From a bacterium (lineage in GTDB: Bacteria > Patescibacteriota > Microgenomatia > UBA1400 > UBA12108): 64,000 bases of DNA. The DNA lies in the NCBI GenBank assembly GCA_037133595.1, contig JBAXNV010000001.1, positions 30,479 to 94,478 on the forward strand. The letters run 5' to 3'. A model generated the notes under the pieces. The model was not told where the DNA came from and did no database searches. It saw only the letters and a list, made by a program, of their open reading frames with translations. A program made the position numbers and the translations under genes. This document shows, piece after piece, positions 2,711 to 62,678 of this stretch; the stretch's first letter is position 1, and every line of letters begins with the position of its first letter.

Positions 2711-4056
2711 AAAAATATTGGCTAATAATTTGGATATTAATTTTCGCTTTCGGGGCAATAGTTAGATTTTTCCAATTTACTTCACGCTCCCCATTTGATT
2801 GGGATCAAAATCGTGATTATGCAGCAGTTGCCTCGATTGTTTCTGGCAAACCAACTCTACTTGGACCTATCGCCAAAGGCGATAATGGTTTTTATATAGG
2901 GCCCTTGTATTATTATCTACTAGTCCCAGGATACATCGTCTCAAAAGGCAATCCAATCTCATTCCCAATAACAAGTATTACTATCGATTTGCTTGGGATT
3001 GCTCTTCTAATTTATCTTGCATATCGGCGTTCGAGCGAGCGCCAAGTTGCAACAATTATCGCTGGCATCTGGTCAATTTCTTGGTTTTGTATCGAAAACT
3101 CTCGCGTGTCGTGGAATGTGGCATTACTATTTTCATGGATGGCCGCAATGTATGTTTTTGCGACGATGCGCAATAACACCAATTTGAGGATATTTTGTTA
3201 TGGCTTGGTAGCGGGTTTAGCCTGGCATATTCACGCTTCGCTCTTGCCGCTTAGCATCATTTTGCCAGTATTTTTCTTGCCCCAATCTACTTCTCGTATC
3301 AAAAGTTATTTACTATTTTGCGTTGGATATTTCGTTCCGCTCATCCCGTTATTGGCTTTTGATTTGCGTCACGCATTTTTTAATCTCAATCTTATGCTTA
3401 ATTTTGTCTCCACTCAAAACGACTTGCCTCACTCATCTATTACTTCAATTATCATAGATGTTATCGCCAAATTGGGTCGAAATACCATGGGAATCATAGG
3501 GGGTCCTCTTCGCTCCAATGTTTGGGTTGGGATTGCCGTAATGATGCTAGCATTGTGGGGGTTATTTACTCGCCGCCGCACTACTTTGTGGGCCAGTGTA
3601 ATCATATTTTTTAACTTTATATTTGTGGTAGCTTTGCGTGACCTACGCTTTCCCGAATATTATCTTGCTGCCAGTTATCTACCGGTTCTAATTTTGTTAT
3701 TCAATTTACGAATAAAGTTTGTTATACCTACGCTCGCTCTTTTGTTAATTGCGTTCTTCAATATTTCCTCGTACTCAATCGCTCCAAGCCCATATTCTTT
3801 GGCTAATAAAATTTTGCTTACGCAAAAAGTTTCTTCCTTAAAAGCCTCAATCGATGCGCGCTATGAGCTATCTCCTGGTAGGGAAGGGGGGATTGTGCCC
3901 CTTTTGCAAAAAGCAGGCGTTACAATCAACCAATCAGCTGACACTAAGATTATCTTTACGGATAAACTAGACGGCCAAGTTACAATCGGCAGTATGTTCG
4001 CTACAGATCTAATTCGCATCGGTGGCTTACGCGCCGCCATCTATAAGGTACAATAA
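2707..4056 (+). CDS. polytopic membrane protein, probable GT-C type glycosyltransferase
   Basis: More than 10 predicted hydrophobic helices; translationally coupled within the GT operon. Confidence 0.45.
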   Translation: MKKYWLIIWILIFAFGAIVRFFQFTSRSPFDWDQNRDYAAVASIVSGKPTLLGPIAKGDNGFYIGPLYYYLLVPGYIVSKGNPISFPITSITIDLLGIALLIYLAYRRSSERQVATIIAGIWSISWFCIENSRVSWNVALLFSWMAAMYVFATMRNNTNLRIFCYGLVAGLAWHIHASLLPLSIILPVFFLPQSTSRIKSYLLFCVGYFVPLIPLLAFDLRHAFFNLNLMLNFVSTQNDLPHSSITSIIIDVIAKLGRNTMGIIGGPLRSNVWVGIAVMMLALWGLFTRRRTTLWASVIIFFNFIFVVALRDLRFPEYYLAASYLPVLILLFNLRIKFVIPTLALLLIAFFNISSYSIAPSPYSLANKILLTQKVSSLKASIDARYELSPGREGGIVPLLQKAGVTINQSADTKIIFTDKLDGQVTIGSMFATDLIRIGGLRAAIYKVQ

Positions 4057-53652: not shown

Positions 53653-53681
53653 TTGACAACTATATCATTCTAAGCTTAAAT
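53653..53681 (+). promoter_or_regulatory. candidate mraZ/dcw promoter (TTGACA, 17 nt spacer, TTAAAT)
   Basis: Hexamers read from the sequence 35-60 nt upstream of the mraZ ATG; AAAGTGG-like element at 53697-53707. Confidence 0.35.
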
Positions 53682-53715
53682 GTCCTCATTGGAAAAAAGT
53701 GGAAAAGAGTCTTAT

Positions 53716-54147
53716 ATGTTTATTGGCACATATTATCACACTCTCGAAGATAAAGGCCGCGTCGCGGTGCCCAAAACTTTTCGGCAACTTCTTGGTACTG
53801 GTAGCGTTGCAACTTACGGTCTCGACGGTTGTCTCTTTATCTTTACAGAAGAAGGCTGGTCCAAGCTCACCGACAAACTCTCAACCCTCCCGCTCGGTAG
53901 CAAGCCTGCTCGCGATTTCTTGCGTCTTCTTACCTACAACGCAACCCCCATCGAGTTTGATGCTCTAGGTCGTACTCACCTCCCAGAAAACCTCATTGCT
54001 CTAGGGAAGCTCAAAAAAGAAGTTGTTTTTGCCGGCGCGCTTTCTCGTGTCGAGCTTTGGGACAAGCAAGCTTATCACACCTATGTCGACAGCCTCTCGG
54101 CAAGTGAAGCTACTTTATCCGAAACTCTTGGGGAACTTGGCATATGA
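53716..54147 (+). CDS. mraZ: transcriptional regulator MraZ
   Basis: Duplicated DxxxR motifs LEDKGRVAVP and FDALGRTHLP. Confidence 0.85.
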   Translation: MFIGTYYHTLEDKGRVAVPKTFRQLLGTGSVATYGLDGCLFIFTEEGWSKLTDKLSTLPLGSKPARDFLRLLTYNATPIEFDALGRTHLPENLIALGKLKKEVVFAGALSRVELWDKQAYHTYVDSLSASEATLSETLGELGI

Positions 54148-55016
54148 CAAACGTCGTTCACATCCCAGTGCTTGTAGAACAAGTGGTAAAGATTTTTGAG
54201 CCAGCAGCTGGCAAGACTTTTGTCGACGCGACACTTGGTGCGGCAGGTCACTCTCTTGCTATCCTTTCTTGTGGCGCCACTATTATTGGGATCGATCAAG
54301 ACGAAGATATCCTACAAATCGCTCAAGATAGGATCAAAGAAGCGGGTTACTCAGATCAATTTACACCTATCTGTGCGAGCTTTAGCAAACTGGCAGAGTT
54401 AATCAAAACTCCTGTCGATGGTATTCTTTTTGATCTTGGGGTAAGTAGTTATCAGCTCGACACTCCCGAGCGTGGCTTTTCGTTTCGTTACGACGCTCCT
54501 CTTGATATGCGCATGAGCAAGTCGCTTAGTGTCACTGCTGCTGATCTTGTAAACGCGCTTGGCCGCAAAGAGCTATATGAGCTTTTTACAACACTTGGCG
54601 ATGAATATCGTTGCAAACCACTTATCGAAACAATCATGCGGCAAAGAAAAATCCAGCCAATCAAAACAACCGGCGAGCTAGTCGACCTAATCGAAGACTG
54701 CCTACCAAGGACTGGCGCGATTCACCCCGCAACCAAAATTTTCCAAGCCCTTCGCATGGCTGTCAACAGTGAGCGCGAAGAGCTCAAAGCCGCACTGCCC
54801 TCGGCTTTGAGTGTACTAAAACCGGGTGGGATACTAGCAGTTATTAGTTTTCACTCCGGTGAAGATGCAATTGTAAAAGATTTTTTTGCCGAAAACTCAA
54901 AAGCGATCGAAAGCTTGTCCGACAAACCAATAATCGCCACAAACAAAGAAGTCGAGGATAATCCTCGCTCTCGCTCAGCCAAATTACGTATAGGAAGGAA
55001 AAATGAAACTAATTAA
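54144..55016 (+). CDS. rsmH: 16S rRNA (cytosine1402-N4)-methyltransferase
   Basis: HIPVLVEQVV...FVDATLGAAGHS...GIDQD. Confidence 0.9.
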   Translation: MTNVVHIPVLVEQVVKIFEPAAGKTFVDATLGAAGHSLAILSCGATIIGIDQDEDILQIAQDRIKEAGYSDQFTPICASFSKLAELIKTPVDGILFDLGVSSYQLDTPERGFSFRYDAPLDMRMSKSLSVTAADLVNALGRKELYELFTTLGDEYRCKPLIETIMRQRKIQPIKTTGELVDLIEDCLPRTGAIHPATKIFQALRMAVNSEREELKAALPSALSVLKPGGILAVISFHSGEDAIVKDFFAENSKAIESLSDKPIIATNKEVEDNPRSRSAKLRIGRKNETN

Positions 55017-55296: not shown

Positions 55297-57048
55297 ATGT
55301 CACATAATACAACTGACCGCCTAAGCTTGGCTTTTGAATTATTTTTACTTGCAATTACAGTCGTCGTTGCTAGGCTTATTTATTGGCAACTTATCAAAGG
55401 TGGTGAGCTCAAGATTCAAGCCGCCGAGCAGCACGCCAAGCAAAGTTCGGTCGAGCCCAAACGCGGTACGATTAAGACAGCCGATGGCTATCCTCTGGTA
55501 TTTACCACTCCAACTTACTCAGTTGTAGAGTATAAGCCTCAGCTCAAAGATACTGCAACCAAGATTACGGATAGTATTTTGCCGCTTCTCAATTTTGAGA
55601 TAAAAGATCCCGTAATCGCAACAGATCCTGCTCAAGTCGCGACAAAAATCAAAGAACTGCAAGACTCAACTCGCCTAGACATGCTCGACAAGCTCAATAC
55701 CAAGAACTGGGCGATATTAGCCAAAGGGGTCACGATCGACGAGAAGCAGCAAATCGAAAATCTCAAATTCCCAGGCATCGCCTTTGAGGAAAGTTTTGTG
55801 CGTGGTTATCCAGAGGCCTCTATGTCTGCTCACGTAATTGGTTTTGTTGGCAAAGATGATATGGATGCGCCAACTGGCTACTTTGGCCTAGAAGGGTTTT
55901 ACAATCGCGAGTTATCAGGTCGGGTTGGTCTGGAAAAAGAAGACAAAGATGCTTCGGGCAACCCTTTGTTGATCAGCACTTTTCGCAAATTATCTGGTCG
56001 TGAAGGACGAGATCTTACGCTGAATATGGAGCGCAGTGTCCAACACATCGTCGAAAGCGAGCTAGCAGCAGCTCTTGTTCGCTACGGCGCCTCAGCGGGC
56101 GAGGTAATTGTGATGGATCCCAATACGGGCGGGATTCTAGCGATGGCAAGCCTCCCGAACTATCAGGGAGATCGGTTTGGGTACTATGACACCAGTCTCT
56201 ACAAAAATCCTAGTATTGCCAACAGCTACGAGCCTGGGAGTACTTTCAAGGTACTAGTCGCTGCCGCAGCATTCAACGAAGGTGCAATTACCAAAGACGA
56301 CAAATGCGACATTTGTGGTGGTCCTCTCCCAATCGACAAATACTTTATCAAGACCTGGGATGGCACTTACCGGCCTGGCGCCACACCCGAAGATATCATT
56401 GTTCACTCCGACAACACGGGTATGGTCTGGATGCAAAGGAAACTTGGGGGCGAGAAAATGGTCGACTATCTTACCAAGTTTGGGATCGGTCAAAAGACTG
56501 GGATTGATCTTCAAGAAGAGGTTGCTCCGCCATTTCGTAGCAAATGGGGAGAAATCGACTACGCGACTTCTTCGTTTGGCCAGGGGATTGCAGTCACCTC
56601 GATTCAAATGATAACGGCTGTTTCGGCGATTGCCAATGGTGGCAAGTTGATGGAGCCTCATGTGGTCAAGAGTGTTGGCGGGGACAAAGGGCTTGAGGTA
56701 GTCCCCAAAGTTATTCGCACAGTAATCTCGCCAGATGCCGCAACAGAAGTCAAAGATCTTATGGTTGCCGCAGTAGAAAAGGGCGAGGCGCAGTGGACCA
56801 AGATAAAGGGTTACAAGGTAGCCGGAAAGACGGGCACGGCTCAGATTGCGGTCGATGGGTATTACGACGCCGAAAAGACCATAGCCAGTTTTGTGGGTTT
56901 TGCTCCAGCCGACAATCCCCGTTTTGTGATGATCACCAAACTTAGAGAACCCACCACCTCAATCTGGGGGAGCGAAACTGCCGCTCCGCTCTTTTTCAAG
57001 ATCGCGCGCCGCTTATTTTTGCACTACAATATCGCGCCCACTCAGTAG
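55297..57048 (+). CDS. ftsI: penicillin-binding protein (peptidoglycan D,D-transpeptidase FtsI)
   Basis: SxxK (GSTFK), SxN (HSDNTG) and KTG (GKTGTAQ) motifs; N-terminal TM. Confidence 0.85.
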   Translation: MSHNTTDRLSLAFELFLLAITVVVARLIYWQLIKGGELKIQAAEQHAKQSSVEPKRGTIKTADGYPLVFTTPTYSVVEYKPQLKDTATKITDSILPLLNFEIKDPVIATDPAQVATKIKELQDSTRLDMLDKLNTKNWAILAKGVTIDEKQQIENLKFPGIAFEESFVRGYPEASMSAHVIGFVGKDDMDAPTGYFGLEGFYNRELSGRVGLEKEDKDASGNPLLISTFRKLSGREGRDLTLNMERSVQHIVESELAAALVRYGASAGEVIVMDPNTGGILAMASLPNYQGDRFGYYDTSLYKNPSIANSYEPGSTFKVLVAAAAFNEGAITKDDKCDICGGPLPIDKYFIKTWDGTYRPGATPEDIIVHSDNTGMVWMQRKLGGEKMVDYLTKFGIGQKTGIDLQEEVAPPFRSKWGEIDYATSSFGQGIAVTSIQMITAVSAIANGGKLMEPHVVKSVGGDKGLEVVPKVIRTVISPDAATEVKDLMVAAVEKGEAQWTKIKGYKVAGKTGTAQIAVDGYYDAEKTIASFVGFAPADNPRFVMITKLREPTTSIWGSETAAPLFFKIARRLFLHYNIAPTQ

Positions 57049-57052
57049 TCAC

Positions 57053-58345
57053 ATGATACAATTATGTCCATCAATTATGAAAAAACAGCTTAAAGATGTC
57101 TTTAGACCTCTCTTTCCCCAGGTCTTGATCAACTACCTGTTTCATCTCCCCAAAGCATTTTTGGCTAGCCGCATTTATGGCAATCCAAGCGCCGATCTAG
57201 AGATAATTGGGGTCACGGGCACAGATGGCAAGACCACCACAACCACGCTCATTTACCATATTCTCAAAATTGCCAAAAAGAAAGTTGCCATGGTCTCCAC
57301 AATCGAAGCCAAAATTGGCAAAAAAAGCCTCAAAACTGGCTTTCACGTGACCTCTCCCGACCCATTTTCACTTCAAAAATTTTTGCGCATGATGCGCTCT
57401 CAAAAGATTCGCTATGTAGTACTTGAGATGACCAGTCACGGTCTGGATCAATTCCGCTTTTACCCCATCAAGCCCTCAATTGCAGTTTTAACCAACATTA
57501 CCCACGAACATCTCGATTACCACAAAACCTTTGACAAGTACAAAGACGCCAAGCTCAAATTATTCCGCCACGCCAAGTATGCCGTCGTCAACAAAGATTT
57601 ATCGACCTTTCAGGATCTCAATCGTCGCCTCAGCAAGGTTCTTTTCTCGACATATTCGATCGATCAAGAGTCTCAGCTGCGTCCTTCGCATGTTGAGTAC
57701 GGCGTAGGCTATACCAAGTTTAATATTGGCAAAATAGAATACATGGTCCCTCTAACCGGTCGCTACAATCTCGAAAATACTTTGGCAGCCATAAGTACAG
57801 CATTGCTATTGGATATTGCTCCTTCAGAAATCAAAAAAGCACTCATGAGCTTCCCGGGTCTTAAAGGTCGCTTCGAAACGGTAGAGAATGACAGGGGTAT
57901 TAATTCCATCGTTGATTTTGCACACACTCCAAATGCTCTTCGCGAGGTATTGCAAAATGTTCGTTCTCAGATGAGCCAGGGACAGCGATTAATTGTAGTT
58001 TTTGGCTCGGCAGGGTTAAGAGATGAGTCCAAAAGACCACTTATGGGTCAGGCTGCTAGTGAGTTTGCCGACGAGATCGTTCTTACCGCCGAGGATCCAC
58101 GCACCGAGGATCCAGGAGCAATCGCAGCCGCCATTCAATCTGGCATTGCCAAGAAAAAGCTTAAATTAGTTCACGTTGAGCTTGATCGCCAAGCTGCAAT
58201 TGATCTAGCAATCAACAAGCTTGCCAAAGCTGGAGATTGGGTCGTATGTGCTGGCAAAGGTCACGAAGAATCTATGTGTTATGGTACAGTAGAGACACCC
58301 TGGTCAGATCGCGTTGCGGTCGAGACTGCACTAACAAACAAGTAA
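57053..58345 (+). CDS. murE: UDP-N-acetylmuramoyl-L-alanyl-D-glutamate--2,6-diaminopimelate (or L-Lys) ligase MurE, short form
   Basis: GVTGTDGKTTTT; LEMTSHGLDQFR (the MurE S-S-H-A-L-x-Q-x-R equivalent); DFAHTPNAL; GRFE. Confidence 0.75.
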   Translation: MIQLCPSIMKKQLKDVFRPLFPQVLINYLFHLPKAFLASRIYGNPSADLEIIGVTGTDGKTTTTTLIYHILKIAKKKVAMVSTIEAKIGKKSLKTGFHVTSPDPFSLQKFLRMMRSQKIRYVVLEMTSHGLDQFRFYPIKPSIAVLTNITHEHLDYHKTFDKYKDAKLKLFRHAKYAVVNKDLSTFQDLNRRLSKVLFSTYSIDQESQLRPSHVEYGVGYTKFNIGKIEYMVPLTGRYNLENTLAAISTALLLDIAPSEIKKALMSFPGLKGRFETVENDRGINSIVDFAHTPNALREVLQNVRSQMSQGQRLIVVFGSAGLRDESKRPLMGQAASEFADEIVLTAEDPRTEDPGAIAAAIQSGIAKKKLKLVHVELDRQAAIDLAINKLAKAGDWVVCAGKGHEESMCYGTVETPWSDRVAVETALTNK

Positions 58346-58352
58346 GGAAGTT

Positions 58353-59102
58353 ATGTCCAATCTTAAGCACACAGCCGCCATTATTTTAGCTGCTGGCAAG
58401 GGCTCCAGGATGCATGCCAAGCTCAAAAACAAGGTAGCTTTTGTTCTCGATGGACAGCCGATGGTTGCCCGTGCCGCGACCAATCTTAGGTTAGCCGGAG
58501 TTGGCCAAATCATTGCCGTTGTTGGCTTTGCCGCCGACTCTGTCAAAAAAGCTCTTGGCGACCAGGTAACTTACGTCACTCAGAGTGAACAACTTGGGAC
58601 CGGCCATGCCATCAAAACTGCGCTCCCCGCCATGGCACCCGAGATGACGACTGTGCTCTCAGTTTATGGCGACGACTCAGCTTTTTACCCCGCAACACTT
58701 TATGAGTCTATGATTCACAAGCTTATTGAGAGCGGCTCGGGACTTTTGTTTTTAACAATCATCAAGGAAGATCCTTTTGGGCTCGGTCGCATCATAAGAG
58801 ACAATGTTGGCAATGTACTTCGAATTGTCGAAGAAAAAAACGCAACCGAAAAAGAGAAGCAAATCCAAGAAATAAACACTGGTTTTTACTGTTTCAAACG
58901 CGATTTTTTAGAGAAATATATTTGCGAAATTACTCAAAATGAGATTTCTGGCGAGTACTACCTGACAGATCTTGTTGAAATTGCGCTAAAACACGGCGAA
59001 AAAGTAGACACTTATCGGGCAGATAGTAATCTTTGGCACGGCGTCAACAACAGGAGTGATTTTGCCAAAGCCAGGGTCAAGATTTCCAAAAATTATGAAT
59101 AA
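58353..59102 (+). CDS. sugar-1-phosphate nucleotidyltransferase, GlmU N-terminal (UDP-GlcNAc pyrophosphorylase) domain only
   Basis: AIILAAGKGSRM; QSEQLGTGHAIKTALP (GlmU signature); 249 aa with no LbH acetyltransferase domain. Confidence 0.6.
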   Translation: MSNLKHTAAIILAAGKGSRMHAKLKNKVAFVLDGQPMVARAATNLRLAGVGQIIAVVGFAADSVKKALGDQVTYVTQSEQLGTGHAIKTALPAMAPEMTTVLSVYGDDSAFYPATLYESMIHKLIESGSGLLFLTIIKEDPFGLGRIIRDNVGNVLRIVEEKNATEKEKQIQEINTGFYCFKRDFLEKYICEITQNEISGEYYLTDLVEIALKHGEKVDTYRADSNLWHGVNNRSDFAKARVKISKNYE

Positions 59103-61326
59103 AAAAGCCTATTTTATCGGAATAAAGGGAGTCGGAATGATGGCTCTTGCTCTTGCCATGCAAGATGTTGGCTGGCAGGTTTCAGGGTCAGATACAGCCG
59201 AAAACTTCATTACCGATCACGTGCTTTCCGCCCGCAACCTAGAGGTCCGTCCCCTAGGCTCTGCGATCCCAGAGGGGACGGACCTCATCGTTTACTCAAC
59301 TGCTTACACAAAGCCAATCCATCCCACAGCCAAAATAGTTTCGCTTGCTCAGGCATTAGCTGATTTTGTAAAAGATCGAACAGTTATCGCTGTGGCAGGG
59401 GTAGGGGGCAAGACTACAACTAGCGCCATGCTCGCAACGCTGTTTCGCGCTGCTGGCCGCGATGCTGGGTATTATATAGGCACAAGCGATATCGTAGGGC
59501 TCAATGCTCCAGGAGCCGCTGGCACTGATCCAGTGTATATAATCGAAGCCGATGAGTATGCTATCAGCAAGTCGGATTCACGCCCCAAATTTGCACTACT
59601 AAACCCCAATATTCTCATTACCACCAATATTCAGCACGATCATCCTGACATTTATCCAGACGAAGCCTCAACTCTTGGAACTTTTCGCACTCTTGTTGAG
59701 AGTTTACCACAGGGTTCTACATGGATCGCCTGCGAAGACGATCAACTAACTCATCAATTATTGTGCGACCCTCAAGGTCTGACCCTGAGGGCCAAAACCA
59801 TACGCTACGGAAAGTCGCATCCAATATATCAACAGCTTTCACTCTCTGTCTTTGGCGATCACAACAAGCTGGATGGCACGGCCGCCGTTCTTGCGGCGAT
59901 CGAATCTGGGATCACGATGAAAGAGGCAGTTGTTGCGATCCAAAGTTACAAGGGCGCGACTCGTCGCCAAGAAAAAATGGGTGAGGTTGCAGGGCGTCTT
60001 TTGTACGATGACTACGGGCATCATCCCCACGAAATCGAGTCGACCGTGTCTGCTTTCAAACAAGCTTTCCCACGTAACAAAATAACTCTCGTCTTCGAGT
60101 CTCACACTTATTCGCGCACCGAAAAGTTGCTAGTCGAATTCGCCAAAGCAATTGCGCTTGCCGACAACTGCTACATCATGCCAATTTTTGAAAGTGCTCG
60201 TGAGAAGGGCCAGCCTCACTCTGTTACCCCAGAGAGTTTTGCCAAAGAAGTTGCCAAGTACAATAACAACGTCAAAGCTCTTACTTGGGATAACGCGGCA
60301 GAGACTATCGCCCAAGAGAGCCGTGAAAAAGACCTCATTCTTACAATGGGCGCAGGATTTGTTTATAAGTTGCACACTGAGTTAAGGTCTGTTCTTGAAA
60401 GGAATTCACGAGTGCAACTCGAGAAGGGCTCGCCGGCAGGTGAAAGGACAGATCTCATGGGATTAATCATACAAAAAAACATTCCTTTAGCAAAGTACAC
60501 TTATTTCAAGCTTGGTGGTCCCTCCGATTATTTTGTAGAAGTCAAAACAATTGTCGAGCTAACAACGGCGCTCTCTTATGCCCAAGATCACAAACTCCCA
60601 TATTTTATCCTAGGTAGTGGTAGTAACATCCTCGTTACCGACAAAGGGTTTCGGGGACTTGTCATCAAAAATAAAATTGCAAACATCACTCAGCAAGACA
60701 ATATCTTGACTGCGGATTCTGGCGTTCCAGTTAATCAACTGGTGACATATGCGATTGCTCAAGGTCTTGCTGGTCTTGAAGATTTCTTGGGGCTGCCAGG
60801 CACTGTCGGGGGGGCGATATTTAACAATGCTCATCACATGGGCGATCTCATTGGCAACCACGTGGTTAATGTCAAAGTTCTTGAGGCAGATGGCAAGATT
60901 AGTACTCTCACTCACAAAGAGCTTGATTTTGCCTATGATTATTCGCGTTTGCACAACACCGACGAGATTATTCTCTCAGTGTCATTTCAGCTCACCAAAA
61001 AAGACAAAGAAGAACTTGCCCAAAAAGGTCAATTTGCTGTGGCGCGCCGCGCCAAGACCCAACCACTCGGTTCCTCAAGCTCTGGCTGTATCTTTCAAAA
61101 TCCAAGTAGCACCCAATCCGCTGGTTACCTCATCGATCAGGCAGGTCTCAAGGGCGCGCGCGTTGGTGGCGCGGTAGTAAGTGATGTACACGCCAACTTT
61201 ATCGTCAACGACGGTAGTGCGACCTCCTCGGATGTGCTTGATCTTATCGAGTTAATTAAGGCCAAAGTGTACCAGGTACATGGTGTAAACCTTGTCAGTG
61301 AAGTGTTTGTGATTGGCGAAAAATAG
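59095..61326 (+). CDS. murC-murB: fused UDP-N-acetylmuramate--L-alanine ligase / UDP-N-acetylenolpyruvoylglucosamine reductase (MurC-MurB)
   Basis: MurC half: FIGIKGVGMMALA, GVGGKTTTSAM, DDYGHHPHEI. MurB half: YFKLGGPSDYF, LGSGSNILV, GLPGTVGGAIFNNA, SSGCIFQNP. Carries copy 2 of the 23-nt element. Confidence 0.8.
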   Translation: MNKKAYFIGIKGVGMMALALAMQDVGWQVSGSDTAENFITDHVLSARNLEVRPLGSAIPEGTDLIVYSTAYTKPIHPTAKIVSLAQALADFVKDRTVIAVAGVGGKTTTSAMLATLFRAAGRDAGYYIGTSDIVGLNAPGAAGTDPVYIIEADEYAISKSDSRPKFALLNPNILITTNIQHDHPDIYPDEASTLGTFRTLVESLPQGSTWIACEDDQLTHQLLCDPQGLTLRAKTIRYGKSHPIYQQLSLSVFGDHNKLDGTAAVLAAIESGITMKEAVVAIQSYKGATRRQEKMGEVAGRLLYDDYGHHPHEIESTVSAFKQAFPRNKITLVFESHTYSRTEKLLVEFAKAIALADNCYIMPIFESAREKGQPHSVTPESFAKEVAKYNNNVKALTWDNAAETIAQESREKDLILTMGAGFVYKLHTELRSVLERNSRVQLEKGSPAGERTDLMGLIIQKNIPLAKYTYFKLGGPSDYFVEVKTIVELTTALSYAQDHKLPYFILGSGSNILVTDKGFRGLVIKNKIANITQQDNILTADSGVPVNQLVTYAIAQGLAGLEDFLGLPGTVGGAIFNNAHHMGDLIGNHVVNVKVLEADGKISTLTHKELDFAYDYSRLHNTDEIILSVSFQLTKKDKEELAQKGQFAVARRAKTQPLGSSSSGCIFQNPSSTQSAGYLIDQAGLKGARVGGAVVSDVHANFIVNDGSATSSDVLDLIELIKAKVYQVHGVNLVSEVFVIGEK
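59769..59791. repeat. 23-nt near-palindromic element CCCTCAAGGTCTGACCCTGAGGG (copy 2, in-frame in murC, encoding PQGLTLR)
   Basis: Identical to 45275-45297. Confidence 0.7.
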
Positions 61327-61349: not shown

Positions 61350-62678
61350 ATGACAAGTTTCAAAATCAAAGGCGGATCTCCTCTTCGAGGCGCAGTACGT
61401 CTTGGTGGAGCCAAAAATGCCAGCTTCAAGCTTATGATCGCCGCAGCATGTGGCGTGGGCGAGTCACGACTGCTCAACATGAGTAATATTGGCGATGTCG
61501 ATGTTACTTTTCGCACTCTCGAGGCACTTGGTGTCAAATGTACTCGACCTGGCGATAATACAGTTTATGTTGTCGGCAACGGGATCAATTCAGACACAAT
61601 CCCTCAATTTGCAGGTGAGAAAAGTCGCGCCAGTACGCTTTTTGCAGGCCTTCTTCTTAACAAAAAGGGTAGGGCGGTGATTCCTCAACCTGGTGGATGC
61701 GCTCTAGGCGATCGCCCAGTAGAGCGCCATCTCGATGGCTTTCGTGCCATGGGTGCAACCGTAGAATGTACAGATAACGCAATTGTCATGGAGGCTCCAG
61801 ATGGTCTTCATGGTGCAACCTACAAGTTTGACAAAAAAAGCCACACTGGTACTGAGGCTATAATTATTGCGGCAGTTCTTGCTCACGGCAAAACAGTAAT
61901 CGAGAATGCAGGCCTTGAGCCAGAGATTGATGACCTCATCAATTTCTTCAACAAAATGGGTGCAAGTATTAGCCGTATGGGCAATGGAGAGACGATTGTG
62001 ATCGAAGGGGTTGATACGTTATATGGCGCTACACATCGCGTCATGTGTGATCGCAATGAGGCTGTAAGCTATGCCACGATGGCGATAGCTTCCAAAGGCG
62101 ATATTATCGTTGAAGGCGCAGATCCCAAGTATCTTACTGCCTTTCTCAACAAGCTTGATCAGGCGGGTGGACGCTACGAAATCGAAGAATACGGCATCCG
62201 TTTTTGGTATGACTCACCGCTTGTTGCAACAGATCTCACAACCGGACCTGAGCCAGATTTTATGACAGACTGGCAGCCTCTCTGGACTACCATGATGACT
62301 CAGGCTAAAGGAGAAAGTCATGTTATCGAGGCTGTGCACAACAATCGCCTGGCATTTACGAGCCAACTCAACTCGATGGGGGCAAACATCGAAACCTACG
62401 ATCCAATGCCAGAGGATCCAAGTGGTTTCTACGAGTTCGAGTGGCCCGAACGTGTCAAAAACCCTCATGCCGCAAAGATCATTGGTCCAACCCCTCTTGT
62501 CGGCAAGCTGGATCTTACTGTTCCAGATTTACGCGGCGGTGCGACTCTAGTTATGGCAGCTCTAATTGCCGAGGGTACAACAATCATCAAAGATATCGAA
62601 CAGATTGATCGAGGCTACGAGAGTTTCGACGAAAGACTGCGAAATCTCTCTGCAAGTATCGAACGTATTGAGGGCTAA
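61350..62678 (+). CDS. murA: UDP-N-acetylglucosamine 1-carboxyvinyltransferase
   Basis: LGGAKNASFKLM; PGGCALGDRPV (active-site Cys). Confidence 0.9.
   Translation: MTSFKIKGGSPLRGAVRLGGAKNASFKLMIAAACGVGESRLLNMSNIGDVDVTFRTLEALGVKCTRPGDNTVYVVGNGINSDTIPQFAGEKSRASTLFAGLLLNKKGRAVIPQPGGCALGDRPVERHLDGFRAMGATVECTDNAIVMEAPDGLHGATYKFDKKSHTGTEAIIIAAVLAHGKTVIENAGLEPEIDDLINFFNKMGASISRMGNGETIVIEGVDTLYGATHRVMCDRNEAVSYATMAIASKGDIIVEGADPKYLTAFLNKLDQAGGRYEIEEYGIRFWYDSPLVATDLTTGPEPDFMTDWQPLWTTMMTQAKGESHVIEAVHNNRLAFTSQLNSMGANIETYDPMPEDPSGFYEFEWPERVKNPHAAKIIGPTPLVGKLDLTVPDLRGGATLVMAALIAEGTTIIKDIEQIDRGYESFDERLRNLSASIERIEG

What the first reader, a model, noticed from the sequence alone, without database searches (positions are those of the whole stretch)
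59095..61326. MurC-MurB fusion protein (756 aa)
A single ORF contains a complete MurC ligase (GVGGKTTT, DDYGHHPHEI) followed, with no stop or frameshift, by a complete MurB reductase (FAD-binding YFKLGGP...GLPGTVGGAIFNNA...SSGCIFQNP). This fuses enzymes that catalyse consecutive steps in UDP-MurNAc-L-Ala formation and is an uncommon arrangement for the dcw cluster.
Basis: seen in the sequence. Interest (0 to 1): 0.5.

Follow-up and report, generated by a model that had tools for sequence, protein, structure and literature searches.

The report
MurC–MurB fusion joined by palindromic repeat
Two consecutive cell-wall enzymes (MurC and MurB) really are fused into one protein here, which is a known architecture, but the piece that joins them is a translated copy of a small, structured, repeated DNA element that also sits in frame inside many unrelated genes of related uncultured bacteria.

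Summary
The ORF is real: ATG 59095 to stop 61326, 743 aa. It holds a full MurC (aa 5-430) and a full MurB (aa 456-743).

It is not a sequencing error. Two relatives about 70% identical, from independent assemblies, carry the same in-frame fusion with the same gene order. The three form one clade, and its sister lineage has separate, overlapping murC and murB.

The architecture is already known. It was characterised in Verrucomicrobium spinosum, and more than 100 protein clusters at 50% identity match both halves. It is rare among the close relatives sampled.

The new result is the linker, 60377-60463. It is the most nucleotide-conserved stretch of the gene and is a copy of a structured palindromic element of about 75-87 nt. 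The element has three helices, 98.5% pairing and compensatory changes at 12 of 23 pairs.

I found 32 distinct copies in metagenome contigs. They lie in frame inside ClpB, TsaD, TsaE, an ATP-citrate-lyase-like gene, Wzy and SecD, and antisense inside TatD. Some contigs carry 5-6 copies in 13 kb. No Rfam family matches, and I found no report of it.

The closest analogue is the Rickettsia palindromic elements. Its insertion at the murC/murB junction most likely created this fusion.

The parts
59095..61326 (+). murC::murB fused ORF (743 aa plus stop)
   Evidence: ORF list and sequence; domains; the start is supported by the N-termini of homologues.
59095..60378 (+). MurC module (aa 1-428): UDP-MurNAc:L-Ala ligase, three Mur-ligase domains
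   Evidence: Pfam and NCBIfam. The alignment to solved MurC structures keeps GKT, EADE, NIxxDH, HN, RR and DDYGHHP. It is 60-66% identical to hundreds of standalone Microgenomates MurC proteins.
60377..60463 (+). Linker, a copy of the structured palindromic repeat. P1 60384-60396 pairs with 60444-60456; P2 is 60409-60421; P3 is 60430-60443. Translated in frame as ...LRSVLERNSRVQLEKGSPAGERTDL...
   Evidence: Covariance model R1 scores 88.5 bits, E=6e-22. It is the top outlier for third-codon-position conservation. Covariation is shown in A3. The segment is absent from the sister lineage L003.
60442..60459 (+). Shine-Dalgarno-like GAAAGGA (60442-60448, inside the 3' arm of P1) followed by an in-frame ATG (60457-60459, Met455) at the position of the ancestral MurB start
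   Evidence: Sequence. Other copies of the element carry CTCAATGG, and there the ATG starts the downstream gene (L098, L137, L114). The ATG is lost in L001 (ACG) and L002 (AAG).
60460..61323 (+). MurB module (aa 456-743): FAD-dependent UDP-GlcNAc-enolpyruvate reductase fold of the short, S. aureus-like type, with a variant active site (Asp for Arg, Cys for Ser, Glu kept)
59235..59293 (+). Second, short hairpin inside murC: a 14-bp perfect inverted repeat GAGGTCCGTCCCCT / AGGGGACGGACCTC that resembles the P1 stem of the element
   Evidence: R1 scores 27.4 bits. The same inverted repeat is present in L010, and the 5' arm is conserved at the nucleotide level in L001, L002 and L003.
58353..59102 (+). 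Upstream gene: the uridyltransferase half of GlmU only; it overlaps the murC start by 8 nt
61350..62678 (+). Downstream gene: murA, the step before MurB

Best explanation
This is a real gene fusion in the dcw cluster of a Woesebacteria-like (Microgenomates, CPR) bacterium. One 743-aa polypeptide carries MurC at the N-terminus and MurB at the C-terminus. MurA, encoded by the next gene, makes UDP-GlcNAc-enolpyruvate. The MurB domain (FAD, NADPH) reduces it to UDP-MurNAc. The MurC domain then adds L-Ala using ATP. The fusion fixes a 1:1 stoichiometry and keeps the two active sites close together.

The linker of about 28 aa is not ordinary spacer sequence. It is a translated copy of a small mobile palindromic DNA element with a 13-bp outer stem, two inner hairpins and an invariant core. 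The ancestral genes were adjacent or overlapping. Insertion of the element at the murC 3' end / murB 5' end, in its stop-free frame, removed the murC stop codon and joined the two ORFs. This happened in the common ancestor of the window, L001 and L002.

Shown: the ORF, the domains, conservation of the fusion, the identity of the linker with the repeat family, its structure and covariation, and its in-frame presence in many other genes in both orientations.

Inferred: that the insertion caused the fusion, that both enzyme activities are retained, that the element is or was mobile, and how it moves. In this window an SD-like sequence plus ATG at Met455 could additionally allow some free MurB to be made.
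For: The ORF and domains are established, and MurC motifs are conserved against solved structures.

The same fusion, synteny (murE, glmU-N, murC::murB, murA) and linker occur in L001 (GCA_023245255.1) and L002 (JGI 3300061720) at 69-71% identity. Both halves are under purifying selection, with pN/pS 0.24-0.30 while synonymous sites are saturated.

In the NJ tree (window,(L001,L002)) is sister to L003, which has separate genes overlapping by 22 nt and no element.

Third-position invariance in the linker is 0.64 against a gene mean of 0.22, the top window of the gene. Identical codons occur at 11 of 19 invariant residues in the linker against 99 of 432 elsewhere, p=0.0015.

A core-pattern scan found 82 loci, about 50 carrying the full element, of which 32 are distinct copies. 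In these, 98.5% of pair cells are paired, 12 of 23 pairs show double compensatory changes, and 0 of 500 shuffles reach the observed values.

In-frame copies lie inside ClpB AAA_2, an ATP-citrate-lyase-like gene, TsaE, TsaD, Wzy_C and Fic, at the SecD, GT2 and RnpA C-termini, and at the LepA N-terminus. Antisense in-frame copies lie inside TatD. One contig has up to 6 hits in 13 kb.

A different subfamily copy sits at the same murC-murB junction in unfused L010, which belongs to another clade.
Against: There is no protein-level or transcript-level evidence, and no reads.

The MurC score is below the NCBIfam trusted cut-off.

The MurB domain has Asp and Cys where S. aureus MurB has the catalytic Arg188 and Ser238. 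This is lineage-wide in standalone MurBs, but activity is untested.

Fusion first and element insertion second, on the same branch, cannot be excluded.

No target-site duplication, transposase or empty/filled strain polymorphism was found for the element. Only one full copy occurs in the 64-kb window.

Strong synonymous conservation of the linker across three old lineages is not what a dead selfish insert predicts. Together with a sense-strand G·U bias in these three copies, it hints at an additional RNA-level role that this explanation does not cover.
Confidence: 0.75

Rival explanations
1. The fusion is an artefact. A sequencing or assembly error removed the murC stop codon or shifted the frame, or a repeat-induced misjoin occurred at the palindromic element.
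For: The linker is a repeated sequence, and repeats can cause misassemblies. No reads are available.
Against: Three lineages that differ at most synonymous sites all keep one frame through the junction. Gene order is identical to that of unfused relatives. An identical protein comes from a separate Logan assembly.
Confidence: 0.02
2. The single ORF mainly yields two separate enzymes. MurB would be translated on its own from Met455 using the SD-like GAAAGGA carried by the element, or the linker would be cleaved by a protease, so that the fusion is only formal.
For: GAAAGGA lies 8 nt upstream of the in-frame ATG at 60457, at the position of the MurB start in standalone relatives. In other loci the element's ATG is the start of the downstream gene.
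Against: L001 and L002 have lost that ATG (ACG, AAG) yet keep the open frame. The SD is buried in a 13-bp stem. Ribosomes translating murC meet no stop codon. The V. spinosum fusion was not cleaved (PMC4803751).
Confidence: 0.12
3. The element is a functional sense-strand RNA, such as a riboswitch-like translational operator, a ribozyme or a processing site. In this reading it controls murB expression or splits the mRNA, and it is not selfish DNA.
For: The junction and loop nucleotides are invariant while the stems covary, which is a pattern typical of functional RNAs. The SD is sequestered in P1. Synonymous sites are conserved across three lineages. Five of the nine sense-strand G·U pairs lie in the three murC-murB copies.
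Against: The same element lies in the middle of unrelated single-domain ORFs (ClpB, TsaD, TsaE, ACL-like). It also lies in reverse orientation inside TatD, where the mRNA carries its complement. Overall, G·U pairs (9) and A·C pairs (6) show no strand asymmetry. There is no Rfam match even at E up to 10.
Confidence: 0.08
4. The element is removed or bypassed, by an intron-like or 'byp'-like mechanism, so the mature proteins lack the 25-aa insert.
For: Its length is a multiple of three and it forms a closed hairpin, as translational-bypass and splicing elements do.
Against: All of the roughly 13 independent sense insertions in ORFs use one frame (E0), although a second sense frame (E1) is also stop-free. 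That is expected if the insert is translated and is unnecessary if it is removed. At 75 nt it is far too small for a self-splicing intron.
Confidence: 0.03

Closest known systems
MurB/C (MurC-MurB) fusion enzyme of Verrucomicrobium spinosum (PMC4803751), and the 'MurC-MurB' class of natural Mur chimeras (PMC10214165)
   Same: Same domain order (MurC N-terminal, MurB C-terminal), similar size (770 against 743 aa), a single ORF, and consecutive steps of the pathway. [quoted passage not shown]
   Different: The origin is independent. The nearest relatives of both halves here are standalone Microgenomates proteins at 55-66% identity, against about 30-40% to other fusions. The linker here is about 28 aa and is a repeat-element copy. 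The 2016 paper reported the fusion only in Verrucomicrobia.
[quoted passage not shown] 2000, as summarised in PMC10969869)
   Same: A short, non-autonomous, hairpin-forming repeat inserted in frame into many unrelated housekeeping ORFs. It is translated as a conserved hydrophilic peptide and tolerated by the host proteins.
   Different: The phylum is different (CPR). The element is about half the length, 75-87 nt against about 150. There is no evidence of sequence relatedness. The architecture is a three-helix junction with an invariant interior and a covarying outer stem. Here it bridges two genes and creates a bifunctional enzyme. Some copies donate an ATG to the downstream gene.
MITEs, REP/BIME and ERIC-type bacterial repeats
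   Same: Small, multi-copy and palindromic, occurring in both orientations and sometimes inside genes.
   Different: MITEs conserve their terminal inverted repeats and have target-site duplications. Here the termini vary (while staying paired) and the interior is invariant. No TSD was seen and no partner transposase was identified.
Other Mur chimeras: MurE-MurF, MurC-Ddl, MurG-MurC (PMC10214165)
   Same: dcw-cluster neighbours fused into one polypeptide, with or without a disordered linker.
   Different: The partners differ, and none has been reported to be joined by a repeat element.
Independent MurC-MurB fusion in Candidatus Beckwithbacteria CG10_big_fil_rev_8_21_14_0_10_34_10 (L016)
   Same: Same architecture within Microgenomates.
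   Different: It is only 36% identical, and its short AT-rich Lys-rich linker contains no element. This is a separate event with a different mechanism.

Membership tests
[quoted passage not shown] | Three Mur-ligase domains aligned end to end with the family profile | tested here: met
   Pfam PF01225, PF08245 and PF02875. TIGR01082 covers aa 5-430 against profile positions 2-448 of 449.
[quoted passage not shown] | Score above the curated NCBIfam cut-off | tested here: not met
   282.8 bits against 335.1. It is still far above mpl (148), murD (55) and murE (41). Standalone orthologues 60-66% identical are named MurC by JGI.
[quoted passage not shown] | ATP- and Mg-binding and catalytic motifs (GxxGKT, EADE, NxxxDH, HN, RR, DDYxHHP) | tested here: met
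   Alignment to 4hv4 and other solved MurC structures.
[quoted passage not shown] | L-alanine-adding activity | not testable with these tools
   Needs an enzyme assay or complementation.
MurB (UDP-N-acetylenolpyruvoylglucosamine reductase, NF010480 / TIGR00179) | FAD_binding_4 plus MurB_C domains, full-length profile match above the cut-off | tested here: met
   NF010480 scores 295 bits against 259, and TIGR00179 scores 225.9 against 144.5. The best solved match is MurB 4pyt, E=3.6e-55.
MurB (UDP-N-acetylenolpyruvoylglucosamine reductase, NF010480 / TIGR00179) | Canonical catalytic triad Arg/Ser/Glu (S. aureus R188, S238, E308; residue numbering from my own knowledge) | tested here: not met
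   YRxS is replaced by YDYS, GSxF by GCIF, and Glu is kept; NAGAYG is replaced by NNAHHMG. The same substitutions occur in the standalone MurBs of this lineage. I therefore file it as a MurB-family domain with a variant active site. The reductase function is inferred, not shown.
MurC-MurB bifunctional fusion (V. spinosum type) | One ORF with MurC N-terminal and MurB C-terminal, both complete | tested here: met
   More than 100 collinear representatives of 720-850 aa are listed.
MurC-MurB bifunctional fusion (V. spinosum type) | Common descent with the Verrucomicrobia fusions | tested here: not met
   Only the P0003 cluster is more than 50% identical; other fusions are 30-41%. The closest relatives of each half are unfused. 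This is convergent.
RPE-like 'coding palindromic' repeat element | Multiple copies at non-orthologous sites | tested here: met
   32 distinct copies, at least 15 distinct coding sites, and up to 6 per 13 kb.
RPE-like 'coding palindromic' repeat element | Hairpin or palindromic structure supported by compensatory changes | tested here: met
   98.5% paired, 12 of 23 pairs with changes on both sides, 0 of 500 shuffles reaching the observed values, and slid controls at 32-50% paired.
RPE-like 'coding palindromic' repeat element | In-frame insertion inside otherwise conserved ORFs, seen as an insert relative to the family profile | tested here: met
   The AAA_2, TsaE, TsaD, Citrate_synth_N and TatD profiles are interrupted or lengthened by about 25 aa at the position of the element.
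RPE-like 'coding palindromic' repeat element | Presence/absence polymorphism at an orthologous site | tested here: met
   At the murC-murB junction the element is present in the window, L001 and L002. The site is empty in the sister lineage L003 and in the other unfused loci except L010 (70 unfused in all). It is occupied by another subfamily in L010.
RPE-like 'coding palindromic' repeat element | Sequence homology to the Rickettsia RPE families | not tested
   No RPE sequences were available. None of the families listed by Pfam or NCBIfam covers the linker.
MITE | Conserved terminal inverted repeats, target-site duplication and a cognate transposase | tested here: inconclusive
   The ends pair but vary in sequence. 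No TSD is evident in the flanks of A3. No transposase was searched for systematically.
Any Rfam 15 RNA family | Covariance-model match | tested here: not met
   No hit at gathering thresholds in the window or in 10 loci. No hit at the element at E up to 10 in 4 loci.

The most novel reading that the evidence does not exclude
The linker belongs to a previously undescribed family of small, structured, mobile 'coding palindromes' in CPR/Patescibacteria. These would be the counterpart of the Rickettsia RPEs, but with a three-helix junction and an invariant core that imply a dedicated, still unknown recognition machinery. In this reading the family inserts in frame into essential genes in both orientations, can donate SD and ATG signals, and here has welded two adjacent cell-wall genes into a bifunctional enzyme. 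The copy in murC::murB may then have been co-opted at the RNA level, as suggested by conserved synonymous sites and G·U-only drift.
Probability: 0.45. Interest if true: 0.75.

Novelty: new variant of a known kind. Interest (0 to 1): 0.55.

Why it matters
The fusion alone adds only one more, independent, example of a known Mur chimera.

Its linker shows a concrete route by which selfish repeats can create multidomain enzymes. A stop-free palindromic insert at a gene junction converts two cistrons into one polypeptide, and the product has then been kept for a long evolutionary time.

If the element family is confirmed as mobile and undescribed, it has several consequences:
- It is a new class of in-frame insertion in the very small genomes of CPR bacteria.
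- It affects gene calling, domain annotation and the counting of 'fusions' in metagenome-assembled genomes.
- It gives a compact, highly constrained nucleic-acid structure whose partner protein or function could be sought.

The variant MurB active site (Asp and Cys in place of Arg and Ser) across this lineage is also relevant to MurB mechanism and to inhibitor design.

Tried and rejected
- **Sequencing error:** rejected, because the fusion is conserved in three diverged lineages.
- **Repeat within the window:** nhmmer, blastn and the covariance model find only one full copy in the 64 kb. The repeat nature became visible only through the metagenome scan.
- **Known RNA family:** Rfam at gathering thresholds and at E up to 10 gives nothing.
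- **Riboswitch or SD-sequestering leader:** this was my first reading of the element. I dropped it after finding copies inside single-domain ORFs and in antisense orientation.
- **Peptide-level census:** A concatenated 54-aa query returned only one candidate, so there is no estimate of spread at the protein level.
- **Full-length alignment for structure prediction:** MAFFT stacked the MurB-only sequences on the MurC half. No structure was predicted and no fold search was run.
- **Reverse-strand ORF spans:** those listed were unreliable (L153 was disproved). I used the direct check plus Pfam instead.
- **Viral contigs:** zero matches to the element core.
- **Literature:** searches for a CPR palindromic, MITE or RPE-like element found nothing relevant. 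That library is not exhaustive.
- **Not established:** the taxonomy of the element-bearing metagenome contigs, and any partner transposase.
Full report
**1. The observation**

The + strand carries one uninterrupted ORF ending at the stop 61324-61326. The tool's longest version starts at GTG 59056 and gives 756 aa. That codon lies inside the upstream gene. All homologues begin at the equivalent of ATG 59095, MNKKAYF..., so the protein is 743 aa.

Pfam finds the three Mur-ligase domains (aa 6-82, 100-244, 290-421), followed by FAD_binding_4 (478-605) and MurB_C (649-739).

NCBIfam aligns murC (TIGR01082) end to end over aa 5-430, at 282.8 bits, which is below the 335.1 cut-off. It aligns murB (NF010480) end to end over aa 456-743, at 295 bits, which is above the 259 cut-off.

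Against solved MurC structures the P-loop, EADE, NIxxDH, HN, RR and DDYGHHP motifs are all kept.

**2. Is the fusion real?**

The context is a CPR-type dcw cluster:
- mraZ (53680-54147)
- rsmH (54144-55016)
- PBP/ftsI (55297-57048)
- murE (57053-58345)
- the uridyltransferase half of glmU (58353-59102)
- murC::murB
- murA (61350-62678)
- an ORF that matches no NCBIfam family here; its counterpart in L003 carries DUF2130

A search of 5.8 billion proteins returned an identical protein from a Logan assembly (P0001). It also returned two fused relatives of 772 and 767 aa at 69% and 67% identity (P0002 from NCBI, P0003 from JGI). Everything else was standalone MurC of about 430 aa at 60-66% identity, named where named as Woesebacteria, Collierbacteria or Microgenomates.

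The contigs of P0002 and P0003 have the same gene order. Between the three fused genes synonymous sites are saturated (pS 0.71-0.81) while pN/pS is 0.24-0.30 in both halves. Both domains have therefore been under purifying selection in this frame for a long time. A sequencing error is excluded.

**3. How common is it?**

In the closest unfused relatives murC is immediately followed by murB. The two overlap by 22 nt in L003 and are 4-5 nt apart in L005 and L006.

Of the 84 related loci I classified by tblastn and frame-tracing (78 of them from 80 GTDB species representatives), 70 have adjacent but separate genes. Only L001, L002 and L016 are fused. L016 is a Beckwithbacteria genome only 36% identical, with an AT-rich linker.

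Globally the architecture is common. In a search of 1.84 billion cluster representatives, more than 100 of the best 150 hits are 720-850-aa proteins collinear with both halves.

[quoted passage not shown] MurC-MurB makes up 11% of UniProt Mur chimeras (PMC10214165).

An NJ tree of concatenated MurC+MurB places (window,(L001,L002)) as sister to the unfused L003. This points to one local origin, independent of the known fusions.

**4. The linker is the surprise**

Aligning the three fused genes codon by codon shows that the linker has much lower synonymous divergence (pS 0.34-0.41) than the flanking domains. Its third-position invariance is 0.64, against a gene mean of 0.22 (sd 0.12). That is the top-ranked window of the whole gene. 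Identical codons are used at 11 of 19 invariant residues in the linker, against 99 of 432 elsewhere (p=0.0015).

The RNA folds with a 12-13-bp outer stem, 60384-60396 pairing with 60444-60456, and the lineages differ by compensatory changes in that stem.

I scanned JGI and ENA metagenome contigs for the invariant core CGAGAAGGGCTCGNCGGCAG. This gave 82 loci, against the handful I estimated would match by chance, and about 50 of them carry the complete element.

Thirty-two distinct copies align without gaps over 87 columns (A3). The element has these parts:
- an outer stem P1 of 13 bp
- J1/2, AAAAGGAAUUCC
- P2, 5 bp with a GCA loop
- J2/3, AGAAGGGC
- P3, 5 bp with a GGCA loop

Of the pair cells, 98.5% are paired. 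Twelve of 23 pairs show changes on both sides (89 cells). None of 500 shuffles reaches these values, and controls with the partner slid by 1-3 columns fall to 32-50% paired.

No Rfam 15 family matches, either at gathering thresholds or at E up to 10.

**5. What the element is**

Its contexts rule out a leader or riboswitch. It lies in frame inside single conserved domains, where it appears as an insert of about 25 aa in the Pfam alignments:
- ClpB AAA_2 (L087)
- an ATP-citrate-lyase-like protein (L092, L127, L139)
- TsaE and TsaD (L108)
- Wzy_C, with two copies (L107, L150)
- a Fic protein (L096)
- the C-termini of SecD (L098, L137), a GT2 (L095, L114) and RnpA (L128)
- the N-terminus of LepA (L152)

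All of the roughly 13 independent sense insertions use one reading frame, E0. The encoded peptide is x-R-x-x-L-[KN]-RNSRLQVEKGS-x-A-x-ER-x-x-L. A second sense frame is also free of stops but is never used.

The element also occurs in reverse orientation, in frame, inside TatD in two genomes, where it encodes EETPFACRRALLDLQSGIPFRESP.

A covariance model (R1) finds up to 5-6 copies, including lower-scoring subfamilies, in contigs of 13 kb.

Across all copies, G·U (9) and A·C (6) mismatches show no strand bias.

Together this describes a small, multi-copy palindromic DNA element that is tolerated, and translated, inside genes. The closest analogue is the Rickettsia palindromic elements (summarised in PMC10969869).

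It differs from typical MITEs in two ways. The termini vary while staying paired, and the interior is invariant. I saw no target-site duplication and identified no transposase.

It was absent from IMG/VR viral contigs. Four literature searches found no description of it in CPR bacteria.

**6. How the fusion arose (inference)**

The linker consists essentially of the element. The MurC part ends at ...KLH(E/T)(Q/E)L. The element follows. After two to six residues the MurB N-terminus resumes (IQKN..L....TYFKLGGP), at the point where standalone MurB starts.

The sister lineage L003 has neither the element nor the fusion. The simplest history is a single insertion, in frame E0, into the overlapping murC-stop / murB-start region. 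That insertion removed the stop codon.

The same junction was hit independently in L010, which belongs to another clade. There a different subfamily copy is read by murC until a TGA in its 3' arm, and murB keeps its own ATG.

Elsewhere the 3' tail of the element (GAAAGGA...CTCAATGG) provides the SD and ATG of the downstream gene, as for the ORFs that follow SecD in L098 and L137 and the GT2 gene in L114. In the window the tail is CTCATGG, which puts that ATG (Met455, 60457) in the fusion frame. L001 and L002 have lost it. The window may therefore make some free MurB as well, whereas the relatives cannot.

**7. Function (inference)**

MurA is encoded by the next gene. The MurB domain would reduce its product, and the MurC domain would then add L-Ala.

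The MurB domain is of the short S. aureus-like type, but several residues differ. It carries Asp where Arg188 lies (YDYS), Cys where Ser238 lies (GCIF), and NNAHHMG in place of NAGAYG. The catalytic Glu is kept. These changes co-occur in the standalone MurBs of this Microgenomates lineage (homologues). They are therefore a lineage trait rather than decay of the fused copy. Activity remains untested.

**8. Open points**

The strong nucleotide conservation of this one orthologous copy over saturated synonymous distances is unexplained. So is the fact that 5 of the 9 sense-strand G·U pairs in the whole data set lie in the three murC-murB copies. Neither is accounted for by a dead insert.

Possible explanations are gene conversion from other copies, continued activity as a source copy, or an acquired mRNA-level role such as a translational pause or control of access to Met455. 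I could not separate these.

A second, shorter hairpin lies inside murC at 59235-59293. It is a 14-bp perfect inverted repeat resembling P1. It is shared with L010, and its 5' arm is conserved in L001-L003, with no change in protein length. It is also unexplained.

**9. Verdict**

The fusion as such is a new, independent member of a known class. The added value lies in the linker: a translated copy of an apparently undescribed, highly structured palindromic repeat of CPR bacteria, which most likely created the fusion. I rate the whole as a new variant of a known kind, with interest 0.55.

Noticed in passing
window 60460-61323 (MurB domain; YDYS at about aa 614-617, GCIF at about aa 664-667, NNAHHMG at about aa 577-583): The MurB domain has Asp in place of the catalytic Arg, Cys in place of the catalytic Ser, and NNxHH in place of the NAGAYG loop; Glu is kept. 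The three changes co-occur in most standalone MurBs of the related Microgenomates loci, whereas other CPR MurBs keep YRxS/GNAGA. This may be a distinct mechanistic subtype of MurB.
   Followed up: partly
window 59235-59293 (murC, aa 48-64 LEVRPLGSAIPEGTDL): A 14-bp perfect inverted repeat GAGGTCCGTCCCCT / AGGGGACGGACCTC lies inside the MurC N-domain and resembles the P1 stem of the element (R1 27 bits). The same repeat is present in L010 at 3135-3193. The 5' arm is identical at the nucleotide level in L001 and L002 and nearly so in L003. There is no insertion in the protein. Its origin is unknown.
   Followed up: partly
L140 4582-5427 (-) and L113 921-1712 (+): TatD-family genes carry the element in reverse orientation, in frame, encoding EETPFACRRALLDLQSGIPFRESP. 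The Pfam TatD_DNase match is lengthened by about 25 aa.
   Followed up: yes
L150 (13.2 kb), L107 (12.8 kb), L119, L134, L160: The element and lower-scoring subfamilies reach very high local density: 6 CM hits in L150, 5 in L107 and 3-4 in the others. One Wzy_C gene contains two copies, and there are partial or nested copies such as 'HPRSDLN' preceding the TsaE copy in L108.
   Followed up: partly
L010 4265-4343 and L005 8670-8754: Divergent subfamily copies have the same P1-type stem but a different interior. One lies at the unfused murC-murB junction of L010, where murC reads into it and stops in the 3' arm. The other lies at the murA 3' end in a Candidatus Woesebacteria genome.
   Followed up: partly
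L016 4371-4411 (Candidatus Beckwithbacteria CG10_big_fil_rev_8_21_14_0_10_34_10): An independent MurC-MurB fusion, 36% identical, with a short Lys-rich AT-rich linker and no palindromic element.
   Followed up: partly
window 57053-58345 and 58353-59102: murE matches its profile only from position 71 onward, so the N-terminal Mur-ligase domain is missing or divergent. The glmU homologue is the uridyltransferase half only, at 249 aa, with no acetyltransferase domain. Both arrangements are shared with the relatives.
   Followed up: no
L098 1-270: A bacterial RNase P RNA (class A) scores below threshold, at 84 bits against a gathering score of 100, with large deletions. It lies on the same contig as an element-bearing SecD. 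This is consistent with a reduced CPR-type RNase P.
   Followed up: no
all copies in A3, columns 27-32 (window 60403-60408): The invariant core contains a GAATTC (EcoRI-type) palindrome within GGAATTCC, and a GCCGGC palindrome when the variable position in P3 is C. I did not examine whether these are recognition sites for a nuclease or methylase.
   Followed up: no
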